A DNA stretch of 7,579 nucleotides from Escherichia coli (GCF_003334305.1 NZ_QOWS01000045.1); one strand, 5' to 3'; counted from the stretch's first letter, positions 1 through 7,579 are shown. Notes: a model not told the origin generated them from the letters alone. A program made the numbers and translations.

Positions 1-361
<361 letters not shown>

Positions 362-526: not shown

Positions 527-766
527 CTAACGTCGCATTACCCATTCATTCAGTTCTGACTCCAGCCAGCCAACGGATTGCCTTCCCAAGCGTTTTTGTT
601 TTGGAAATGTTCCATCGTAGCGTGGCGATTTTGGATTAAGCCAGTCGTATATGGTTGAGCGTGAAATTCCCATTTTTTTCATGACATCTTTTAGCCTCAA
701 GATCCTCGGTGAATCAGGAATATTTGCGTAACTGGATGTATGTAAGGAGGGAGGGTTCTGTAACAT
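527..766 (-). CDS. alpA: AlpA-family (phage/island) helix-turn-helix transcriptional regulator / excisionase-like protein
   Basis: The translation contains RILRLKDVMKKMGISRSTIYDWLNPKSPRYDGTFPKQKRLGRQSVGWLESELNEWV, which closely matches the AlpA (Phage_AlpA) core as I recall it (RILRL...TIYDWL...FP...GWxExExxEW). There is an AAGGAA Shine-Dalgarno about 6 nt upstream of ATG 764..766. It has about 12 extra N-terminal residues compared with my recollection of E. coli AlpA, so the exact start is uncertain. Confidence 0.8.
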   Translation of the reverse strand: MLQNPPSLHTSSYANIPDSPRILRLKDVMKKMGISRSTIYDWLNPKSPRYDGTFPKQKRLGRQSVGWLESELNEWVMRR

Positions 767-879: not shown

Positions 880-1761
880 ATGAAGGATGTGAGTGCGAAT
901 TTTTTTGATGATTTCTATCTGCAAGTTTGTACCGCTTGTGAGGACAAACTTCTTGAGCTGGAATGGAAACTTGAAGTCGAAAAAAAGGAGAGCAACCAGG
1001 ATGTTCTGCGCACTTACAGGCAAAGAGCCTATGATAAAATTGAAGAATTTAAAATTATTGAGTATTCAAAAATACAATGTCAATATTTTGTAGATATGAC
1101 TAATAGCGACAATATACGCTACTCACAAGAGTTTATAAATGTTGATGGAATAATGGTTGAGAAACCTTTTATTTATAAGGAAACATATGCAGAATATCGG
1201 ATTGAAATTCGAGGAAAAATGGACGGGTATAAACTGACAGGATTAGCAAGACTATATGATGCACATTATGAATATATATATCTATCTATGGCTTTAGAAG
1301 ATTTTTACTGGGCGCAGTTCCAATATTCATTGGGCAATAAAAAAGAAAGTTGTAAGTTTCTTCTTGATGCTTATTCTTATATGAATGTCTGTATTTCGCG
1401 AGATGATAACCGAGACTTACCGAGTTTTTATCGATTAAGAAGTGGTTTTGATAAAGTATGCAGAAGAGCGCGCTCAAGCGCTGGAGGGAAAAATAAACTT
1501 GCAGAACTTGAATATATTAAAGATACAGTTGTTATCTTACTTGAAGATATTCCTTCACATAGCGACTGGAAAAATAAACGTCAACTTCTTGAATATTTAA
1601 TGCCCTATATTTGTAATAATGATAAAAAGGTCAATCCAGATAAATGGATAAATGATACAGGCGATAGAGAGGAAACTATCCGCCGCAGACTTAATAAATG
1701 GTCTACAGGTGATCTAAAAGTAGAGATTGATAAAGTCCTAAAGAACAATACTAACAATTAA
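880..1761 (+). CDS. hypothetical protein (293 aa), AT-rich orphan gene of unknown function
   Basis: A long uninterrupted ORF in a visibly AT-rich segment, which in AT-rich DNA is unlikely by chance. The translation is rich in K/E/Y/N/D with no motif I recognise. A possible sigma70 promoter TTGCCA-N18-TACACT lies at 807..836. The RBS is weak (AGGGA about 13 nt upstream of the ATG). Confidence 0.55.
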   Translation: MKDVSANFFDDFYLQVCTACEDKLLELEWKLEVEKKESNQDVLRTYRQRAYDKIEEFKIIEYSKIQCQYFVDMTNSDNIRYSQEFINVDGIMVEKPFIYKETYAEYRIEIRGKMDGYKLTGLARLYDAHYEYIYLSMALEDFYWAQFQYSLGNKKESCKFLLDAYSYMNVCISRDDNRDLPSFYRLRSGFDKVCRRARSSAGGKNKLAELEYIKDTVVILLEDIPSHSDWKNKRQLLEYLMPYICNNDKKVNPDKWINDTGDREETIRRRLNKWSTGDLKVEIDKVLKNNTNN

Positions 1762-1992
1762 TATTATTATGGTTTTGATATTTTTATGTCTATCAGGAGG
1801 GCTACTATACGATCAGTCTTGATGGGTTTGAAATTACATCGCTATGAAAATACCCCACATAAATCTATTGGAAAACCAATCATTGTTAATATGACTATTG
1901 TTATGATGACTGTTGTAATTGTGTCTACACGAGAAATTGAATGAAATTTATAGGTTTGAAGTAGCCTTAGTGGTAGTCGAAAATAATTATGT

Positions 1993-2025
1993 AAATGGGC
2001 CTGCATTTTGCAAGAAGGCCCATTT
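1993..2025 (-). terminator. Candidate intrinsic terminator hairpin (AAATGGGCC - 15-nt loop - GGCCCATTT) closing the minus-strand cassette
   Basis: A 9-bp perfect inverted repeat starts 4 nt after the stop of the 2029..2343 ORF. On the minus-strand transcript it is followed by ACAUAAUUAUUUU (a moderately U-rich tract). It sits between convergent genes. Confidence 0.35.
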
Positions 2026-2028
2026 ACG

Positions 2029-2343
2029 TCAGGGGTAAATTATATATCCCATAATCGCACAGATTAACCGGTAATCACTCACGTAGAAGATTTCCGGATT
2101 CTCAGTGCTTTGTTCACCGATAAAGAAGACTTGAGCTCTCTCTTTAGCTTTTTTATTTACTGCTTCTTTTGCTTCTTCCTGCACAGTTTCAAGCTCATTC
2201 AAAAGCATAGTCTTTTTTGGCTTTTGACCAGTCTCCCCACTCAATGTGTAGTTTATAGCTACGCGAGGGCTTAAACTTACCAGATTCGTCTTTTGCCCAT
2301 TCTCCCGAGAGCGGAATGACAATTCGGTTTTCGTCTTGCTCAA
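2029..2343 (-). CDS. hypothetical small protein; either an independent or translationally coupled ORF (alternative ATG at 2206..2208 gives 59 aa) or the frameshifted C-terminal part of the 2195..2941 gene
   Basis: The ORF overlaps the preceding 248-aa ORF by 149 nt in a different frame. The annotated start is a TTG with no clear RBS. An internal ATG at 2206..2208 overlaps the upstream stop (ATGCTTTTGAATGA), a typical coupling arrangement. The ORF ends 4 nt before the terminator hairpin. Confidence 0.3.
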   Translation of the reverse strand: MSKTKTELSFRSRENGQKTNLVSLSPRVAINYTLSGETGQKPKKTMLLNELETVQEEAKEAVNKKAKERAQVFFIGEQSTENPEIFYVSDYRLICAIMGYIIYP

Positions 2344-2941
2344 ATTTCTGCCATAACAACTGCGAATAAAAAACTCGGCGCTCAGGGTAGGGTTGAACCG
2401 GGTCTTTTAGTTTTTTAAACACGGTCATGTAAGTATCGGCATTAATACCTGGGATATTTAATGACATACCACGGTCATACGGGAAGCGAATAAATGCCCT
2501 ACAAATCTGGCGAATAGCATTAACCGGGCGGCGGGATTGCCGCGCTGGAGCATTTCCCCCGCTGGATGCTGACGATGTAGAACGTATTGGATTGGTGTTG
2601 TTGTCGCTACCAGTAGTGCCAGGATCAACAACGGGTCGTTGTTCAATCAATTTTAACCCTGCGGGCATCAAACCCGGTGCGCTGTCTAGCATGTTGCGGA
2701 CGCTTTTTTTCTGTCCCTGCTTAACCACTGTGCTTTCAGCATCTGCATCACAGTTAATATGCTCTTTTCCAGGCATTTTATTAAACGACGGTCTTTTCTT
2801 ACTTCCTTTTTGCCAAGCGGAAGGATACATCTCAATCCCACATCCCCAGCATACGTAACCGTTCGTATCTACAACATCAAGTAACCAAAGATCTTCTGCC
2901 TCAATAATCTCACTGGTATATTTATTACGTGCAGATTCCAT
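2195..2941 (-). CDS. hypothetical protein with N-terminal Cys/His cluster (CWGC...HINC, zinc-ribbon-like), a low-complexity S/T/G/N-rich linker and a C-terminal domain; probable accessory gene of the upstream NTPase
   Basis: Very strong RBS (AAGGAGA 5 nt upstream of ATG 2939..2941). It starts 45 nt after the stop of the 1283-aa gene on the same strand, consistent with an operon. The CxxC...HxxC spacing was read from the translation; no family is recognised. Confidence 0.65.
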   Translation of the reverse strand: MESARNKYTSEIIEAEDLWLLDVVDTNGYVCWGCGIEMYPSAWQKGSKKRPSFNKMPGKEHINCDADAESTVVKQGQKKSVRNMLDSAPGLMPAGLKLIEQRPVVDPGTTGSDNNTNPIRSTSSASSGGNAPARQSRRPVNAIRQICRAFIRFPYDRGMSLNIPGINADTYMTVFKKLKDPVQPYPERRVFYSQLLWQKFEQDENRIVIPLSGEWAKDESGKFKPSRSYKLHIEWGDWSKAKKDYAFE

Positions 2942-2986
2942 GATTTCTCCTTTAAACAGAATTCCTGTGAAGACGGCAACTAGCCT

Positions 2987-5900
2987 TTATTCAAACCGTT
3001 GTTCCAATGCCTCATCTTCCAATCGCTCACGTTCTTTTTCCTTTTCAACCCAGTCAGTCAGTTTTTCATAAACAGCTCTAGCCGACTTAGAAATGTCTGC
3101 ACGCTCGTGGGTGACCAACTGGCCTATCGCTTCAACCCTAGGTTGCATCACGTTCGCACGACTACCGAACCATGATGAAGGTGCTACGTGTTCGGCAAAG
3201 ATCTCAAGGACGGCTCGTGGCTCGGGTGAGGCTTCTAGAAATCTCAGAGCATCATCCTGCAAGCAAATAGGACTTTGCTCCCCGTCTTTTGACCATAGAT
3301 TAATACCTGAAGCGACTGAAGCCCAAACCTGAGGGTCTTTAGTGGTCCTGCACCATTCAATCAAAATATCTACATCGATTTTCGCAATAGGAGACTGATG
3401 TGAATCATCATGATTGATGAAATGCAGCCGCCTCTGTTGTTGATCCTCCGTACCATCAAAAATGCGACTGAGAAATTCTTTTGGCATCCATGCAGCGGTG
3501 ATACCGATAGCGTCTTCGAAAGAATAAATGTAGCCAAAATGCTCATCAACAACAGCGAAGATTGTATTCAGCCATTCTAGCTTTTCAGCCTCGTTGCCAT
3601 CGAAGCGCAATGTGGCATCGATAACACGTTCCATTGCATAATCCAGATATCCGCCGAGATCGTTGTGATCTCTTTGGAACCTCTGGATTGCAGCGGATAT
3701 TCCGATTGTTCGTAGCGCAAGACCTAGTGTATCCGTAGCATCTCCTTTATCAGCTAGTTTCATACTCAGTGCTTCCAATACTACTTCATCACCATTCGGT
3801 TTACTCAGCAGCCTTTGAGCTAGCTCGAGGACCCTGCTTTCTGGCAAATTAGAGAATTGCTCACCCCACAGAATTGCCCCATACATATGGGGCTGTATGT
3901 CAGAGTCATCCAGAAGCGACATGCAACGATCCAGATCGATTTCAGTAAACTCCTGCCAAGGATGAAGGTTGACTAATTCGAATCGAAGTTCGGAATGTTG
4001 TGCACACTGATCGAGCAGTTCCTGCGCTAATGCTGAATCGATAGAATGAGTCTCTTCAATGAAACCTCGAATGACCGAAACATCACGTTGAGATTTGTGT
4101 TGTAGATCCAATTGAATGACTAGTTGTTGCCAATAAATTCGTAGGTCAGGAGCCCCGTTAGCTAAGCCTTTACCAAATTCGACGCGATACGGCATTCCAT
4201 CCCGCAAAAAAAGATTAGGGCACAACTCATCAAGTCCATGGGAAGATACTGCAAATTCGTGCCCCAACTTGAAAGCTTTGGCACAAAGTATTTTCCTGAT
4301 TTCACTGAATTTATTAGTTCCTTGGTGCTCATAATCAGCATCTAGAGCCCAAAAATCGCGCCTATTACTGAGTACATAAGCCATGATTGCCGAAACCAAG
4401 TCTTTAGGTTCTAATTCTCGTTCCAATGTCACAAGTATTTCCGGCAATGGTTCTACGTCTTCGTTATCTTTTCTTTTTGTATGGAAAAAGTAGATTGTTG
4501 AGCGGACAGCTTTCCAGCCTTCACCCCAAGGGCGATGGGCATGTAACTTACGAGCCGCATCAATTAATTTTGACCTTATTCCTCCATGACGCCAAATCCA
4601 GCGAAATTTATCAGCCAAGATCCGCCTGGCATCATCTTCAAGCTCGGGCACTCCTGAGGTTCCTAATCTCACCAAAATATCGATGAAGGCGAATAGCCAC
4701 GCAACAAGTTCATCGTAACTGGGTCGAAATCCATAATCTCTTGGCCTAGCACCAAACTCATTAATTCCGAATCCTGTCCACGGAGGTCCGCCGAGAGCAG
4801 TTTCAAGCATTTCGATCCCCATCCTTCTACGTTCGGCCATACTTGAATCAATGCATTCATTCATGATCGCAACACGTTGTTCTAAAGAGGCATGGGTACC
4901 GGATAGATAAGGTTGGAAAAACCTCTTTATCTTATTTCGAGCCGAATCATAATTATTGCTCGCGCTTTCCTGGTCTGCGATACGGATTAAGAGCTTAATG
5001 CATCGTTCAAAGTATTTCGATTCATATGCAAGTAACTGCAACAATTTGATAATTGCTGTTCGTTGTGGGTTGTAGCGTGATTTAAAATGCTCAAAATTAG
5101 ACGTAACAAGCGTTTCTTCAATCCTCTCAAGCAAAGCTCCTGGGGCAACTGGAGCGATATAATTTAGAATGCGTGTCGATACATCATCTAGGTCTATTAT
5201 TTTTCCAAGCAGCCCTTCGGGCTGTAACCAAGCTTCAACAATCTCTTTAGCCACAGCATGGCTATGCAATAGTCCCAACCTGTGCGCGAACGACATCAAT
5301 AATCGTTGCCGATCCGGAGCTTCAAAGGTCGTTCTAAGTTGATCAATCGGAATACTATTAAGTGCAGATGCTGCCAACTTGTTAGCAATGGCATGGGGAA
5401 GGATGGCTCTCCAGTGGGATCTTTTCTGAACAATGTGACGTTCCATCAACTTCGTAACAGCTTTGAATAACTGGATTTTGGGATACCCAGAGAGCACACC
5501 CAATATTTCCAGTTCATCGGTAGCTGCATCTGGACTAGATATCGAGAACGAATACACCAGTGACAATATTTCAGCTTGCTCCCGTAAATGGCCGTCGGGA
5601 TGATTACGTTGTTCAAACAAGCGATTAAACAACTGCGCATCTGAAAGTAGGGCTAAACTCTCACCTTCTTCCACTCTTTCCGCTATAGCCAAAGCCACTC
5701 TTGCATTCCCATCTGCGAACTCTGCAATCCGACGGGCATTATTCTGACCAATAGAAGGGAAGCGACGGATAAGAAGTTGCTCTGCCACGTCTGGACCATC
5801 TGTCTCAATGTGGATGACCTCAGTTGTCTGTGGTTTGTCATCCCTAATGTCGTACTCGATCGTGATGAGACTTACTTCTTTCCCTGCGGCTGATACTTTG

Positions 5901-6838
5901 CTGGCAAGCGAAGCATGGAGTTCTGATGGGCAATTATCAAGGATCATAATTGCTCGCCGGCCTTCAGCGAGCAGGTTATCAAGCATTGCTGTAGCCGACG
6001 GTACTGGCTCATAGCCAGTATCAACATAAATAGCTACTGTTCGGTCAAGCGCATCTGTTCCAACAGTTTCATCAAAGAGCGCCTGAACGATTCGAGTCTT
6101 CCCAACACCAGACAATCCTGTAATACGAACAGCCTTGTTTGTCGAACGGATCAGTGCTCGCATTGGGTTAATTGCTTCATCAATTTTGAGTTTTTGCCCC
6201 TTTCCCGATGGTAAAGTAATGGTTACGCCTGGGGCTGAGATTAAAGTGTCTATAACACCTTGTGGTGGATTGCTCCAGGCTCCGTAGGGTTGCCAACCGG
6301 AATACCCTTGCCCAAGCTTTGCTTTTACCCACAGCATGACTGATGGATGTTGGCGCAACCATTGGATGAGTTTGGAGCGGTCGTAGAAATCAAGATGAAG
6401 ATAACTTTCGTTAGGATCATCTTTTACTGCATCCCTCATCGCTTTGAGACGATCCTTCTTTCCTGACGGCGAGCAATCATCACCCAGGCTGACAATGATG
6501 TAACTGCCTTGCTTTCTGGCTTGTTCAGAAATGATGGGAGAAAGTGCTTTGCCGGTGCCAATTTCCCTCTCAATTGCAGACTTAGGCATCTTATGTTTCT
6601 TTGCCTGAAAGACCGTATCAGGTCTTACAAGAAAGCCTGCTTTCAGTTGATCAATTGGAACCTGAACATGGATGTCAATTCCTCCGTCAGGGGCTGTAAT
6701 TGAACCAGACCAATTTACACATGCTGGGCTATGGCCGTGCATTGCCACTTCAGCTTCTGCTAGCCGAGCGATCAGCTCTTCCAGCTGGATATCGGAGAGC
6801 CGAAGTAATTCGTCCTTTTCAATGTCAAAGATTGCCAC
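2987..6838 (-). CDS. Large multidomain defence-type protein: N-terminal Mrr-like PD-(D/E)xK nuclease domain + STAND/AAA+-type P-loop NTPase + long C-terminal helical (probable sensor) region; Avs-like antiviral STAND candidate
   Basis: A 1283-aa ORF with no internal stop. The Mrr-like signature is DGGID (aa 51-55, nt 6674..6688) plus QAK (aa 78-80, nt 6599..6607). Walker A GLSGVGKT is at aa 241-248 (nt 6095..6118), Walker B IMILDN around aa 297-302 (nt 5933..5950) and a GNAR lid/sensor-like motif at aa 377-380 (nt 5699..5710). The remaining roughly 850 aa are predominantly helical-looking sequence. The start is a GTG with an in-frame TAG 12 nt upstream and a weak SD, so the start codon is uncertain. 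Confidence 0.85.
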   Translation of the reverse strand: MAIFDIEKDELLRLSDIQLEELIARLAEAEVAMHGHSPACVNWSGSITAPDGGIDIHVQVPIDQLKAGFLVRPDTVFQAKKHKMPKSAIEREIGTGKALSPIISEQARKQGSYIIVSLGDDCSPSGKKDRLKAMRDAVKDDPNESYLHLDFYDRSKLIQWLRQHPSVMLWVKAKLGQGYSGWQPYGAWSNPPQGVIDTLISAPGVTITLPSGKGQKLKIDEAINPMRALIRSTNKAVRITGLSGVGKTRIVQALFDETVGTDALDRTVAIYVDTGYEPVPSATAMLDNLLAEGRRAIMILDNCPSELHASLASKVSAAGKEVSLITIEYDIRDDKPQTTEVIHIETDGPDVAEQLLIRRFPSIGQNNARRIAEFADGNARVALAIAERVEEGESLALLSDAQLFNRLFEQRNHPDGHLREQAEILSLVYSFSISSPDAATDELEILGVLSGYPKIQLFKAVTKLMERHIVQKRSHWRAILPHAIANKLAASALNSIPIDQLRTTFEAPDRQRLLMSFAHRLGLLHSHAVAKEIVEAWLQPEGLLGKIIDLDDVSTRILNYIAPVAPGALLERIEETLVTSNFEHFKSRYNPQRTAIIKLLQLLAYESKYFERCIKLLIRIADQESASNNYDSARNKIKRFFQPYLSGTHASLEQRVAIMNECIDSSMAERRRMGIEMLETALGGPPWTGFGINEFGARPRDYGFRPSYDELVAWLFAFIDILVRLGTSGVPELEDDARRILADKFRWIWRHGGIRSKLIDAARKLHAHRPWGEGWKAVRSTIYFFHTKRKDNEDVEPLPEILVTLERELEPKDLVSAIMAYVLSNRRDFWALDADYEHQGTNKFSEIRKILCAKAFKLGHEFAVSSHGLDELCPNLFLRDGMPYRVEFGKGLANGAPDLRIYWQQLVIQLDLQHKSQRDVSVIRGFIEETHSIDSALAQELLDQCAQHSELRFELVNLHPWQEFTEIDLDRCMSLLDDSDIQPHMYGAILWGEQFSNLPESRVLELAQRLLSKPNGDEVVLEALSMKLADKGDATDTLGLALRTIGISAAIQRFQRDHNDLGGYLDYAMERVIDATLRFDGNEAEKLEWLNTIFAVVDEHFGYIYSFEDAIGITAAWMPKEFLSRIFDGTEDQQQRRLHFINHDDSHQSPIAKIDVDILIEWCRTTKDPQVWASVASGINLWSKDGEQSPICLQDDALRFLEASPEPRAVLEIFAEHVAPSSWFGSRANVMQPRVEAIGQLVTHERADISKSARAVYEKLTDWVEKEKERERLEDEALEQRFE

Positions 6839-7305: not shown

Positions 7306-7540
7306 ATGAAATGGATAAAAAGCACTTAACCTTCAGCAATGGGCAGATTCTATTCCTGCAAAAGTTATTTTTCCAGCACTAATCGCTGATCTTATACGTG
7401 CAACGGCTAACAGTATTACTGAAATTAGATTTCCTAATGGTGATAAGGGACAGGTTAGAGGTTATGACGGTGTACTTAAAGCCGAGGGGGTGGCCCCCTA
7501 TGTGATCTTACCCAGCAATAGTGGACACGCGGCTAAGTGA
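7306..7540 (+). pseudogene. Small plus-strand reading frame interrupted by a frameshift at an A5 run (MKWIKST-stop in frame; 73 stop-free codons follow in the +1 frame)
   Basis: ATG 7306..7308 has a good RBS (GGTGGAG, 7-nt spacer) but hits TAA after 7 codons. The next frame is open from 7319 to TGA 7538..7540 and has no ATG/GTG/TTG near its start. Removing one A from the run at 7317..7321 would fuse the two into a 78-aa ORF. Confidence 0.2.
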
Positions 7541-7567
7541 GTAAACTCTCAGTCAGAGGTGACTCAC

Positions 7568-7579
7568 ATGACAAAAACA
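7568..7579 (+). CDS. 5' end of a plus-strand gene running off the window (MTKT...)
   Basis: ATG 7568..7570 is preceded by GAGGTG (7556..7561) with a 6-nt spacer. Only 4 codons are in the window, so the product is unknown. This ATG is in the same frame as the open stretch 7319..7537, separated only by the TGA at 7538. Confidence 0.3.

What the first reader, a model, noticed from the sequence alone, without database searches (positions are those of the whole stretch)
2029..2941. Two small co-oriented ORFs downstream of the NTPase: possible accessory subunits or a frameshifted single gene
The 248-aa ORF has a near-consensus RBS and starts 45 nt after the NTPase stop. Its N-terminus carries CWGC...HINC (zinc-ribbon-like), followed by a low-complexity S/T/G/N-rich linker. 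The 104-aa ORF overlaps its last 149 nt in another frame, and both frames look protein-like there. Avs-type proteins usually act alone, so a conserved downstream partner pair would make this an atypical multi-gene system. Alternatively one gene of about 300 aa has been split by a frameshift.
Basis: partly seen in the sequence, partly recalled or inferred. Interest (0 to 1): 0.6.

Follow-up and report, generated by a model that had tools for sequence, protein, structure and literature searches.

The report
Frameshift-split avs8B gene beside Avs8A
The two small ORFs are one known gene, the second gene (avs8B) of the E. coli anti-phage system PD-lambda-4/Avs8, cut in two by a single extra A; this broken copy is the common E. 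coli allele and also the allele that was reported as dispensable.

Summary
The window holds a 248-aa ORF (2195..2941, minus strand) and a 104-aa ORF (2029..2343, minus strand) that overlap by 149 nt. They lie 45 nt downstream of a 1283-aa NTPase.

The NTPase is PD-Lambda-4_A (Avs8A). The two ORFs match one 303-position PADLOC profile, PD-Lambda-4_B, end to end: positions 1-245 and 238-303. The break is one extra A in an A run (A6 here, + strand T6 at 2213-2218). Intact E. coli and Klebsiella aerogenes alleles have A5, and more distant homologs have no run.

Nearly all of about 120 homolog clusters are single ORFs of 300-305 aa. Their substitutions follow one frame on each side of the run, so the overlap is not dual coding.

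About 145 of 148 complete E. coli genomes that carry the locus have the split allele, so it is not a sequencing error. The 248-aa product is WP_000443183.1, the "Avs8B" reported as dispensable.

Intact B is predicted to be a C2HC zinc ribbon, a disordered linker and an OB-like barrel. The frameshift removes the helix and the last three strands of that barrel.

B homologs sit beside many different defence systems, and Avs8A also occurs without B. B is therefore not a dedicated subunit. The system is already known, so interest is low to moderate.

The parts
2987..6838 (-). avs8A (PD-Lambda-4_A): the 1283-aa Mrr-nuclease/STAND NTPase sensor-effector and first gene of the operon
   Evidence: PADLOC PD-Lambda-4_A scores 2531.7 bits over residues 1-1283 of a 1283-position profile. 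The CDS at this position in E. coli 55989 is WP_000963924.1, which is the accession given for ECOR07 Avs8A.
2942..2986 (-). 45-nt avs8A-avs8B intergenic spacer with a Shine-Dalgarno (AGGAG, + strand 2947-2951) 5 nt before the avs8B ATG
   Evidence: Read directly from the sequence. The same spacing of about 45-50 nt is seen in homologous A-B loci L004, L045 and L046.
2213..2941 (-). avs8B, N-terminal 243 codons in the original reading frame: zinc ribbon, linker and first part of the OB-like barrel. The lower coordinate includes the extra A
   Evidence: PADLOC PD-Lambda-4_B profile positions 1-245. Alignment with 51 homologs. Substitutions show third-position bias in this frame.
2213..2218 (-). 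Frameshift site: A6 run on the coding strand (GCC AAA AAA GAC), one A longer than the intact allele (GCC AAA AAG ACT)
   Evidence: Nucleotide alignment with the intact E. coli alleles L002, L015 and L016, and with RIT714, Salmonella and Qat-linked E. coli. K. aerogenes L045 has A5. Searches with 80-nt and 79-nt queries give about 145 genomes with A6 and 3 with A5.
2195..2212 (-). Out-of-frame tail of the truncated product (D-Y-A-F-E-stop) created by the frameshift
   Evidence: Three-frame translation of the region. This tail is absent from all homologs.
2029..2211 (-). avs8B C-terminal 60 codons plus stop, now in the +1 frame: the long helix and last three strands of the OB-like barrel. It contains the in-frame ATG at 2208 and the GTG at 2184 that PGAP uses for a 51-aa CDS
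   Evidence: PADLOC profile positions 238-303. Invariant residues F272, Q277, F285, D289, R291 and C294. Substitutions fall 79/64/257 on codon positions 1/2/3 in this frame. PGAP annotates WP_001358523.1 here.
2212..2343 (-). Mechanical 5' extension of the 104-aa ORF (TTG start at 2343). It is an open alternative frame over avs8B and is not coding
   Evidence: There is no profile match before residue 39. In this frame 69% of substitutions hit codon position 2. No Shine-Dalgarno precedes the TTG.
1991..2027 (-). Perfect 12-bp inverted repeat with a 13-nt loop, 1 nt after the full-length avs8B stop and followed on the minus strand by ATAATTATTTTCG. It is the likely operon terminator
   Evidence: Found with the repeat finder. 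The consensus terminator scan missed it because that scan allows loops of 3-8 only. Its role as a terminator is an inference.

Best explanation
The region is the 3' half of the known two-gene anti-phage operon PD-lambda-4 (Avs8). The two small ORFs are one gene, avs8B. It normally encodes a 303-aa protein and is broken here by insertion of one A into an A5 run (A6 at window 2213-2218).

Translation from the strong RBS at 2941 gives a 248-aa product: 243 native residues plus DYAFE. This product keeps the C2HC zinc ribbon, the disordered linker and the first strands of the C-terminal OB-like barrel. It lacks the long helix and the last three, highly conserved, strands. The 104-aa ORF is the stranded 3' end of the gene (native from T244) plus a meaningless open-frame extension.

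The truncated B is most likely non-functional or at best crippled. Defence at this locus is carried out by Avs8A alone, which binds HK97-fold major capsid protein and switches on its Mrr-type DNase. That part has been shown experimentally by others, using proteins with the accessions that annotate this locus in E. coli 55989.

Intact B is inferred, not shown, to be an autonomous nucleic-acid-binding module. It lives in the defence-cargo region of P4/CP4-like islands and is not a dedicated Avs8 subunit.
For: One profile, two ORFs: the 248-aa ORF matches PD-Lambda-4_B positions 1-245 (544 bits) and the 104-aa ORF matches positions 238-303 (102 bits).

At 50% clustering, 485 representatives have E-values up to 0.001, mostly about 300 aa.

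The shift site: the window has GCC-AAAAAA-GAC. Three intact E. coli alleles and K. aerogenes have GCC-AAAAA-GAC, RIT714 has AAAAGG, and more distant homologs have AAGCGT or AAACGT.

Natural repaired allele: the exact repaired 303-aa sequence exists in E. coli on 21 contigs.

Single frame on each side: substitutions fall 58/29/190 upstream of the run and 79/64/257 downstream, on codon positions 1/2/3.

Conserved C-terminus: the 60 C-terminal residues hold 6 invariant and about 10 nearly invariant positions.

Not an error: about 145 of 148 complete E. coli genomes that carry the locus have A6.

C-terminal piece is expendable: in strain EC20-4B-2 an IS1 element lies directly downstream of the 248-aa ORF in place of the C-terminal piece, while avs8A is annotated intact.

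Literature: ECOR07 Avs8B is WP_000443183.1, the accession of the 747-nt CDS at this position in E. coli 55989. Avs8A alone gave full lambda defence and Avs8B was dispensable.

B is not tied to Avs8A: Avs8A occurs without B in Buttiauxella and Salmonella. B occurs beside Qat, Avs1, Lamassu, type II CBASS, type I RM and others.
Against: The split allele is by far the commonest E. coli allele and shows no further decay. That could mean it is tolerated or even useful. However, the haplotype is very young (the window is 99.97% identical to 55989 and the 1.2-kb region is at least 99% identical in 146 of 150 genomes), so lack of decay says little.

An in-frame ATG (2208) lies 11 nt before the stop of the 248-aa ORF, so the C-terminal 59 aa could be made by translational coupling. 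Gene callers annotate it.

Four independent disruptions in other lineages cluster at residues 239-256. This hints that a cut at this domain boundary may be specially tolerated.

Confidence: 0.85

Rival explanations
1. The gene is split but still functional. The 248-aa N-terminal piece and a separately translated 51-59-aa C-terminal piece (start at ATG 2208 or GTG 2184) reassemble into a working B protein, so the locus really does encode two small partner proteins.
For: ATG 2208 overlaps the end of the upstream ORF (ATGCTTTTGAATGA), an arrangement that could permit coupling. The cut falls at the start of the helix between barrel strands, which is a plausible split point. Independent disruptions at residues 240, 247 and 251-256 occur in Pseudomonas frederiksbergensis, Superficieibacter and Photorhabdus. 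The allele predominates in E. coli.
Against: No Shine-Dalgarno precedes ATG 2208 or GTG 2184. In Superficieibacter the C-terminal part is replaced by unrelated sequence rather than kept. In E. coli EC20-4B-2 an IS1 lies in place of the C-terminal piece. The 248-aa ORF was dispensable for lambda defence. The haplotype is too young for its frequency to indicate selection.
Confidence: 0.1
2. Recoding: ribosomal +1 frameshifting or transcriptional slippage on the A6 run yields some full-length 303-aa B alongside the 248-aa form, as a programmed two-isoform gene.
For: The shift lies in a homopolymeric A run, and Lys codons AAA and AAG allow tRNA re-pairing.
Against: The required shift is +1, whereas A-rich heptamers of the dnaX or IS type promote -1 (established knowledge of those sites). 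In the 0 frame the run is C-AAA-AAA-G followed by the ordinary codon GAC, with no stop codon at the site as in prfB. The site is not conserved: relatives encode the protein directly, with A5 or no run at all. Six A's is shorter than the runs known to give efficient RNA polymerase slippage in E. coli (own knowledge).
Confidence: 0.04
3. Phase variation: the A5/A6 run is a contingency switch that turns B on and off within populations.
For: Both run lengths occur in E. coli. The repaired protein with an otherwise identical sequence exists on 21 contigs.
Against: The three A5 complete genomes lie on distinct island haplotypes (99.6, 97.7 and 96.3% identity to the window, with a full-length GTPase gene annotated where the window haplotype has a truncated one and an IS3). 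They are not scattered within the A6 haplotype. Runs of 5-6 nt switch rarely compared with known contingency tracts (own knowledge). Other lineages have no run.
Confidence: 0.04
4. Sequencing or assembly error in a homopolymer: the real genome has an intact 303-aa gene.
For: Homopolymer indels are a common error type.
Against: The identical 80-nt segment is present in 144 complete genomes, including E. coli 55989 and at least nine separately deposited O104:H4 assemblies. At least 1000 contigs encode the exact 248-aa product.
Confidence: 0.01

Closest known systems
PD-lambda-4 / Avs8 anti-phage system (Vassallo et al. 2022, PMC9519451; bioRxiv 10.1101/2025.07.02.662641; bioRxiv 10.64898/2026.01.04.697583)
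   Same: The CDSs at these positions in E. coli 55989 carry the accessions given for the ECOR07 proteins studied: A = WP_000963924.1 and the 248-aa B = WP_000443183.1. The operon order is A then B, with a 45-nt gap. A is a full-length PADLOC match.
   Different: Nothing differs in sequence. What is added here is that the B of the E. coli reference allele is a frameshift-truncated version of a conserved 303-aa protein. The papers available to me do not mention this.
CoiA N-terminal / zinc_ribbon_11 zinc-ribbon domains (PF06054, PF11682)
   Same: Published HHpred gives about 93% probability for B residues 1-66 or 1-69. The C-x2-C ... H-x2-C ligands are conserved.
   Different: Pfam hmmscan finds no significant match to B or its homologs. 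The rest of B does not resemble CoiA. No nuclease motif was seen, and the C-terminal domain looks like an OB fold.
OB-fold nucleic-acid-binding domains (RPA, Stn1/Ten1, SSB, AIM2/p202 HIN, class IIb aaRS anticodon-binding domain)
   Same: All top structural matches are OB folds. The predicted topology is strands, then a helix, then strands. Conserved aromatic and basic residues include W197, W215, Y229, W238, F272, F285, R137, R144, R148 and R291.
Partner-promiscuous defence-island genes such as the WYL-domain regulators BrxR/CapW (comparison from my own knowledge)
   Same: B is a small protein found directly beside many unrelated defence systems: Avs8, Avs1, Qat, Lamassu, CBASS, type I RM and PDC candidates. 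It often has its own intergenic region of 90-460 nt.
   Different: B has no HTH or WYL match by sequence; one distant structural neighbour in AFDB is annotated as WYL. B usually lies 3' of the system rather than upstream or divergent. A regulatory role is pure hypothesis.
Homopolymer frameshift pseudogenes in bacterial accessory genomes
   Same: A single-base insertion in a short A run truncates the protein and leaves a downstream orphan ORF that annotation pipelines call as a separate hypothetical protein.
   Different: PGAP does not flag it as a pseudogene. The truncated form has become the de facto reference for the family member that was studied experimentally.

Membership tests
PD-lambda-4 / Avs8 defence system | A component: a STAND NTPase of about 1283 aa that matches PD-Lambda-4_A over its full length | tested here: met
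   2531.7 bits over residues 1-1283 of a 1283-position profile. The CDS at this position in E. coli 55989 is WP_000963924.1, the ECOR07 Avs8A accession.
PD-lambda-4 / Avs8 defence system | B component encoded immediately downstream and in the same orientation | tested here: met
   both small ORFs match PD-Lambda-4_B. The gap is 45 nt and an RBS is present.
PD-lambda-4 / Avs8 defence system | B component intact, as a single ORF of about 303 aa like the family profile | tested here: not met
   The profile is covered by two ORFs in different frames (positions 1-245 and 238-303). There is a 1-nt insertion relative to intact alleles.
PD-lambda-4 / Avs8 defence system | Protection against phage lambda, with activation by HK97-fold major capsid protein | not testable with these tools
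   Reported for proteins with the accessions that annotate this locus in E. coli 55989, in bioRxiv 10.1101/2025.07.02.662641 and in Vassallo 2022.
Obligate two-subunit (A+B) system | A and B always co-occur, and B is required for defence | tested here: not met
   Avs8A homologs in Buttiauxella (L047) and Salmonella (L048) have no B-like sequence. Only 5 of 28 species-level B loci have Avs8A next to them. B was reported dispensable, although only the truncated allele was tested.
Overlapping (dual-coding) genes | Purifying selection visible in both reading frames across the overlap | tested here: not met
   substitutions fall 58/29/190 on codon positions 1/2/3 of the 248-aa frame, so they land mostly on position 2 of the other frame. 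There is no profile match for residues 1-38 of the 104-aa ORF.
Programmed ribosomal frameshift / transcriptional slippage genes | A shift site of the right kind and direction that is conserved among homologs | tested here: not met
   A +1 shift is needed. The run is absent or one base shorter in all homologs, which encode the protein in a single frame.
Zinc-ribbon domain (C2HC) | Four conserved metal ligands in two knuckles | tested here: met
   C34, H61 and C64 are invariant and C31 is kept in at least 90% of 52 sequences. The model shows beta-strands around both knuckles. Metal binding itself was not tested.
OB-fold nucleic-acid-binding proteins | A five-stranded barrel with a helix between strands 3 and 4, and binding of nucleic acid | tested here: inconclusive

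The most novel reading that the evidence does not exclude
Intact Avs8B (303 aa: zinc ribbon, disordered linker, OB-like barrel) is not an Avs8 subunit. It is a widespread, uncharacterised, autonomous defence-island module, either a stand-alone anti-phage gene or a nucleic-acid-sensing regulator or helper. It is swapped between, or retained beside, very different systems: Avs8, Avs1, Qat, Lamassu, type II CBASS and type I RM. Its published 'dispensability' reflects only that the common E. coli allele tested is a frameshift-truncated pseudogene.
Probability: 0.35. Interest if true: 0.6.

Novelty: already known. Interest (0 to 1): 0.3.

Why it matters
For the finding as posed, the answer is ordinary. 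It is a known defence operon whose second gene carries a homopolymer frameshift, not a new multi-subunit Avs system.

Two points are still useful to people working on Avs8 and on defence islands.

1. The "Avs8B" used as the reference (WP_000443183.1, 248 aa) is a truncated allele. It lacks the most conserved part of the protein. The conclusion that B is dispensable has therefore not been tested for the intact 303-aa protein, which occurs naturally in K. aerogenes, Yersinia enterocolitica and a minority of E. coli.

2. The B family has 485 representatives at 50% identity, spans several phyla by fold search, and has no Pfam, NCBIfam or PDB match. It is a consistent neighbour of many unrelated defence systems. 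That makes it a candidate for an unstudied independent module.

Annotation pipelines currently call the two fragments as separate hypothetical proteins rather than as one pseudogene.

Tried and rejected
Searches that found nothing for B or its fragments:
- NCBIfam, for both small ORFs, the NTPase and the 293-aa ORF.
- Pfam, for the repaired B and its 51 homologs.
- Sequence search of PDB chains with the profile.
- PHROGs.

C-terminally extended relatives of 370-520 aa were scanned in the hope of finding an informative fused domain. They gave only PD-Lambda-4_B in PADLOC and nothing in Pfam, and the extensions look low-complexity.

The consensus terminator scan found nothing. The hairpin after the gene was found only with the repeat finder.

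The Vassallo 2022 main text and supplement gave HHpred tables. In the parts read they gave no accession or length for PD-lambda-4B and no per-gene deletion test.

Literature searches for 'QatE' and for the protein accession found nothing further on the B family.

The idea that B is a fixed backbone gene next to an integrase was considered. P4-type integrases and YfjJ/YagK-like genes lie within 1-9 kb in many Enterobacterales loci. Elsewhere B abuts housekeeping genes or another defence gene, so the idea is neither confirmed nor excluded.

The large genes flanking avs8A on its other side have no PADLOC match.

Sequencing error, programmed frameshift, phase variation and dual coding were considered and rejected, for the reasons given under the rival explanations.

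Full report
**1. What is in the window**

On the minus strand there is a 1283-aa ORF (2987..6838), then a 45-nt gap, then a 248-aa ORF (2195..2941). A 104-aa ORF (2029..2343) overlaps the last 149 nt of the 248-aa ORF in another frame. The 248-aa ORF is preceded by AAAGGAGAAATC-ATG.

**2. Identity of the locus**

Against PADLOC-DB the 1283-aa protein matches PD-Lambda-4_A over its full length (2531.7 bits). The 248-aa ORF matches positions 1-245 of the 303-position profile PD-Lambda-4_B. Residues 39-104 of the 104-aa ORF match positions 238-303 of the same profile.

The DNA is at least 99% identical to 146 of 150 matching complete E. coli genomes, including 55989 and the O104:H4 outbreak lineage. 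In E. coli 55989 the three CDSs are annotated as hypothetical proteins: WP_000963924.1, WP_000443183.1 and a 51-aa WP_001358523.1.

PD-lambda-4 was found by functional selection as an "ATPase, hypothetical" pair (Vassallo et al. 2022, supplement). It has since been renamed Avs8. Avs8A binds HK97-fold major capsid proteins and activates its N-terminal Mrr-type DNase. ECOR07 Avs8A and Avs8B carry these same two accessions. Avs8A alone gave full lambda defence, whereas Avs8B was dispensable and inactive on its own (bioRxiv 10.1101/2025.07.02.662641). A second preprint confirms capsid sensing.

**3. One gene or two**

Four lines of evidence point to one gene split by a frameshift.

- *The shift site.* The 104-aa frame is +1 relative to the 248-aa frame. 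The switch in homology falls in GCC AAA AAA GAC. Removing one A gives a 303-aa protein made of ORF1 residues 1-243 plus ORF2 residues 45-104.
- *Homolog length.* A search with that repaired protein returned 123 clusters from Enterobacterales and Pseudomonas. Nearly all are 300-305 aa and cover 99-100% of the query.
- *Nucleotide alignment.* Three E. coli genomes (FEX669, R32_14_1F and RMDEC465) have GCC AAA AAG ACT, which is A5. A 91%-identical homolog has AAAAGG, and more distant ones have AAGCGT or AAACGT. K. aerogenes, whose Avs8A is 94% identical, has A5 and an intact 303-aa B.
Against 10 homologous genes, substitutions in the overlap region fall 58/29/190 on codon positions 1/2/3 of the 248-aa frame. 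After the run they fall 79/64/257 in the 104-aa frame. So there is one reading frame on each side of the run. The 5' extension of the 104-aa ORF (2212..2343) is just an open alternative frame.

**4. Not an artefact and not recoding**

An 80-nt query across the run is 100% identical in 144 of 148 complete genomes. The A5 version is identical in only 3.

The A5 genomes lie on diverged island haplotypes (99.6, 97.7 and 96.3% identity). In them a full-length GTPase gene is annotated where the window haplotype has a truncated one and an IS3. A5 is therefore the ancestral state. A6 is a single derived mutation that spread with one island variant.

Programmed frameshifting is unlikely. The required direction is +1, no stop codon lies at the site, and the site is not conserved.

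In strain EC20-4B-2 an IS1 lies directly after the 248-aa ORF in place of the C-terminal piece, while avs8A is annotated intact.

A perfect 12-bp hairpin lies 1 nt after the full-length stop codon (1991-2027). This marks the likely original 3' end of the operon.

**5. What the frameshift removes**

In an alignment of 52 family members, the C-terminal 60 residues are among the best conserved. F272, Q277, F285, D289, R291 and C294 are invariant.

The AlphaFold2 model has mean pLDDT 77 and pTM 0.69. It shows these elements:

- an N-terminal beta-rich zinc-ribbon region, with C34, H61 and C64 invariant and C31 nearly so;
- helices at residues 65-85;
- a disordered linker at 104-133;
- a C-terminal domain with strands at 190-234, a long helix at 240-262 and three more strands at 268-298.

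The frameshift at residue 243/244 falls at the start of the helix. The 248-aa product therefore lacks the helix and the last three strands of the barrel. I infer that it cannot fold into the native domain; this is not shown.

No Pfam, NCBIfam, PHROG or PDB sequence match exists for the family. Published HHpred links residues 1-66 to the CoiA N-terminus and to zinc_ribbon_11.

**6. Is B a partner of Avs8A?**

No, at least not a dedicated one.

Among 28 species-representative loci that encode a B homolog, the neighbouring system varies:

- Avs8A lies upstream in 5 loci.
- QatABCD lies upstream in 2 of them, and also in Salmonella and E. coli loci found separately.
- A divergent Qat-like operon follows B in 4 loci.
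- Other neighbours identified with PADLOC are Avs1a/Avs1b (Erwinia), Lamassu LmuA/LmuB followed by an anti-phage dGTPase (Lelliottia), and type I RM with or without type II or type IV enzymes (Gilliamella, Frischella, Pseudomonas).
- Type II CBASS (SAVED-HNH, cyclase, E1-E2 and JAB, plus an exonuclease) neighbours B in five Pseudomonas species.
- PDC-S06 and PDC-S20 candidates and a weak LeoA/LeoBC-like match also occur.

B proteins that are 75-91% identical to the window's sit beside entirely different systems. B often has its own upstream intergenic region of 90-460 nt.

Conversely, Avs8A homologs in Buttiauxella and Salmonella have no B-like sequence nearby.

Profile and fold searches show a large family of about 300-aa uncharacterised proteins in Proteobacteria, Actinobacteria and Bacteroidota. 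Vassallo et al. had noted 39% identity of PD-lambda-4B to a defence-enriched seed cluster of Gao et al..

I conclude that B is a promiscuous resident of defence islands. Whether it is a stand-alone defence gene, a regulator or helper, or an island-associated gene cannot be decided here.

**7. Mechanism, and what is shown versus inferred**

Shown here:
- one ancestral gene;
- a +1 A insertion;
- a truncated product that lacks the conserved C-terminus;
- the population frequency of the split allele;
- the lack of obligate A-B linkage.

Shown by others, on proteins with the accessions that annotate this locus in E. coli 55989:
- Avs8A alone senses capsid protein and degrades DNA;
- the 248-aa ORF is dispensable.

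Inferred:
- the truncated B is non-functional;
- intact B binds nucleic acid through a zinc ribbon and an OB-like barrel and acts independently of Avs8A.

**8. An oddity**

Independent disruptions in other lineages cluster near the same point:

- a 2-nt insertion at about residue 240 in P. frederiksbergensis;
- loss of homology after residue 247 in Superficieibacter;
- an IS3-family insertion between residues 251 and 256 in Photorhabdus khanii.

With the window's event, that makes 4 of 7 observed disruptions within 17 residues. It keeps alive the minor possibility that a cut at this boundary is specially tolerated or even favoured.

**9. Verdict**

The system is already known.

Interest is low to moderate. 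The useful residue is that the reference "Avs8B" is a pseudogene-like allele, so the function of intact B, a widespread gene with many different defence-system neighbours, remains untested.

Noticed in passing
L017-L043, L007, L014 (loci encoding B homologs); B in the window is at 2029-2941: PD-Lambda-4_B homologs lie directly beside many different defence systems: Avs8A, QatABCD (either side), Avs1a/b, Lamassu, type II CBASS, type I RM with or without type II/IV enzymes, and PDC-S06/S20. B is usually co-oriented and 3' of the system. B proteins 75-91% identical to the window's have different neighbours.
   Followed up: partly
L042:5691-6577; L023:10001-10741; L028:10001-12114; window 2213-2218: Four independent disruptions of B fall within residues 239-256: a 2-nt insertion, replacement of the C-terminus, an IS3-family insertion, and the +1 A in the window. 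All lie at the start of the long helix before the last three strands. This may be chance (n = 7 events in all), or it may be a tolerated or favoured break point.
   Followed up: partly
window 1991-2027: A perfect 12-bp inverted repeat with a 13-nt loop lies 1 nt after the avs8B stop and is followed on the minus strand by ATAATTATTTTCG. It is the likely operon terminator. The consensus terminator scan missed it because of the loop length.
   Followed up: partly
window 880-1761 (+): A 293-aa ORF (WP_000655916.1) converges on avs8B. It has no match in PADLOC or NCBIfam and only an insignificant PHROG hit (E = 0.088). It is conserved at this position in E. coli islands of both the A5 and A6 haplotypes, and tblastn found no homolog in the loci from other genera.
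   Followed up: partly
window 62-361 (-), 527-766 (-); L001:2929-4462: The island backbone here is a truncated YeeP/YkfA-like GTPase gene next to an IS3 element, plus an AlpA-family excisionase/regulator gene. The A5 haplotypes have a full-length GTPase gene annotated and further backbone genes (YfjI/DUF3987 and HTH proteins). The window's island is therefore a degraded CP4/P4-like element.
   Followed up: partly
window 7306-7579 (+); L001:11407-13201; L045:1-3545; L004:1-3796: A very large gene (1248 aa in E. coli and K. aerogenes, divergent from avs8A; 1536 aa and co-oriented in Enterobacteriaceae RIT714) flanks avs8A and has no PADLOC match. In E. coli FEX669 and RMDEC465 a DEAD/DEAH helicase gene is found there instead. 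It may be further uncharacterised cargo of the same defence hotspot.
   Followed up: partly
L003:5288-6012 (E. coli EC20-4B-2) and hit H1 (EC6622): IS1 insertions lie at or next to the avs8B remnant. In EC20-4B-2 the IS1 sits directly after the 248-aa ORF in place of the C-terminal fragment, while avs8A is annotated intact.
   Followed up: partly
L016:5850-6760 (E. coli RMDEC465): This A5 genome carries a different 1-nt deletion at gene position 528, which splits B into ORFs of 177 and 109 aa. It could be a second independent inactivation or an assembly error in that record.
   Followed up: no
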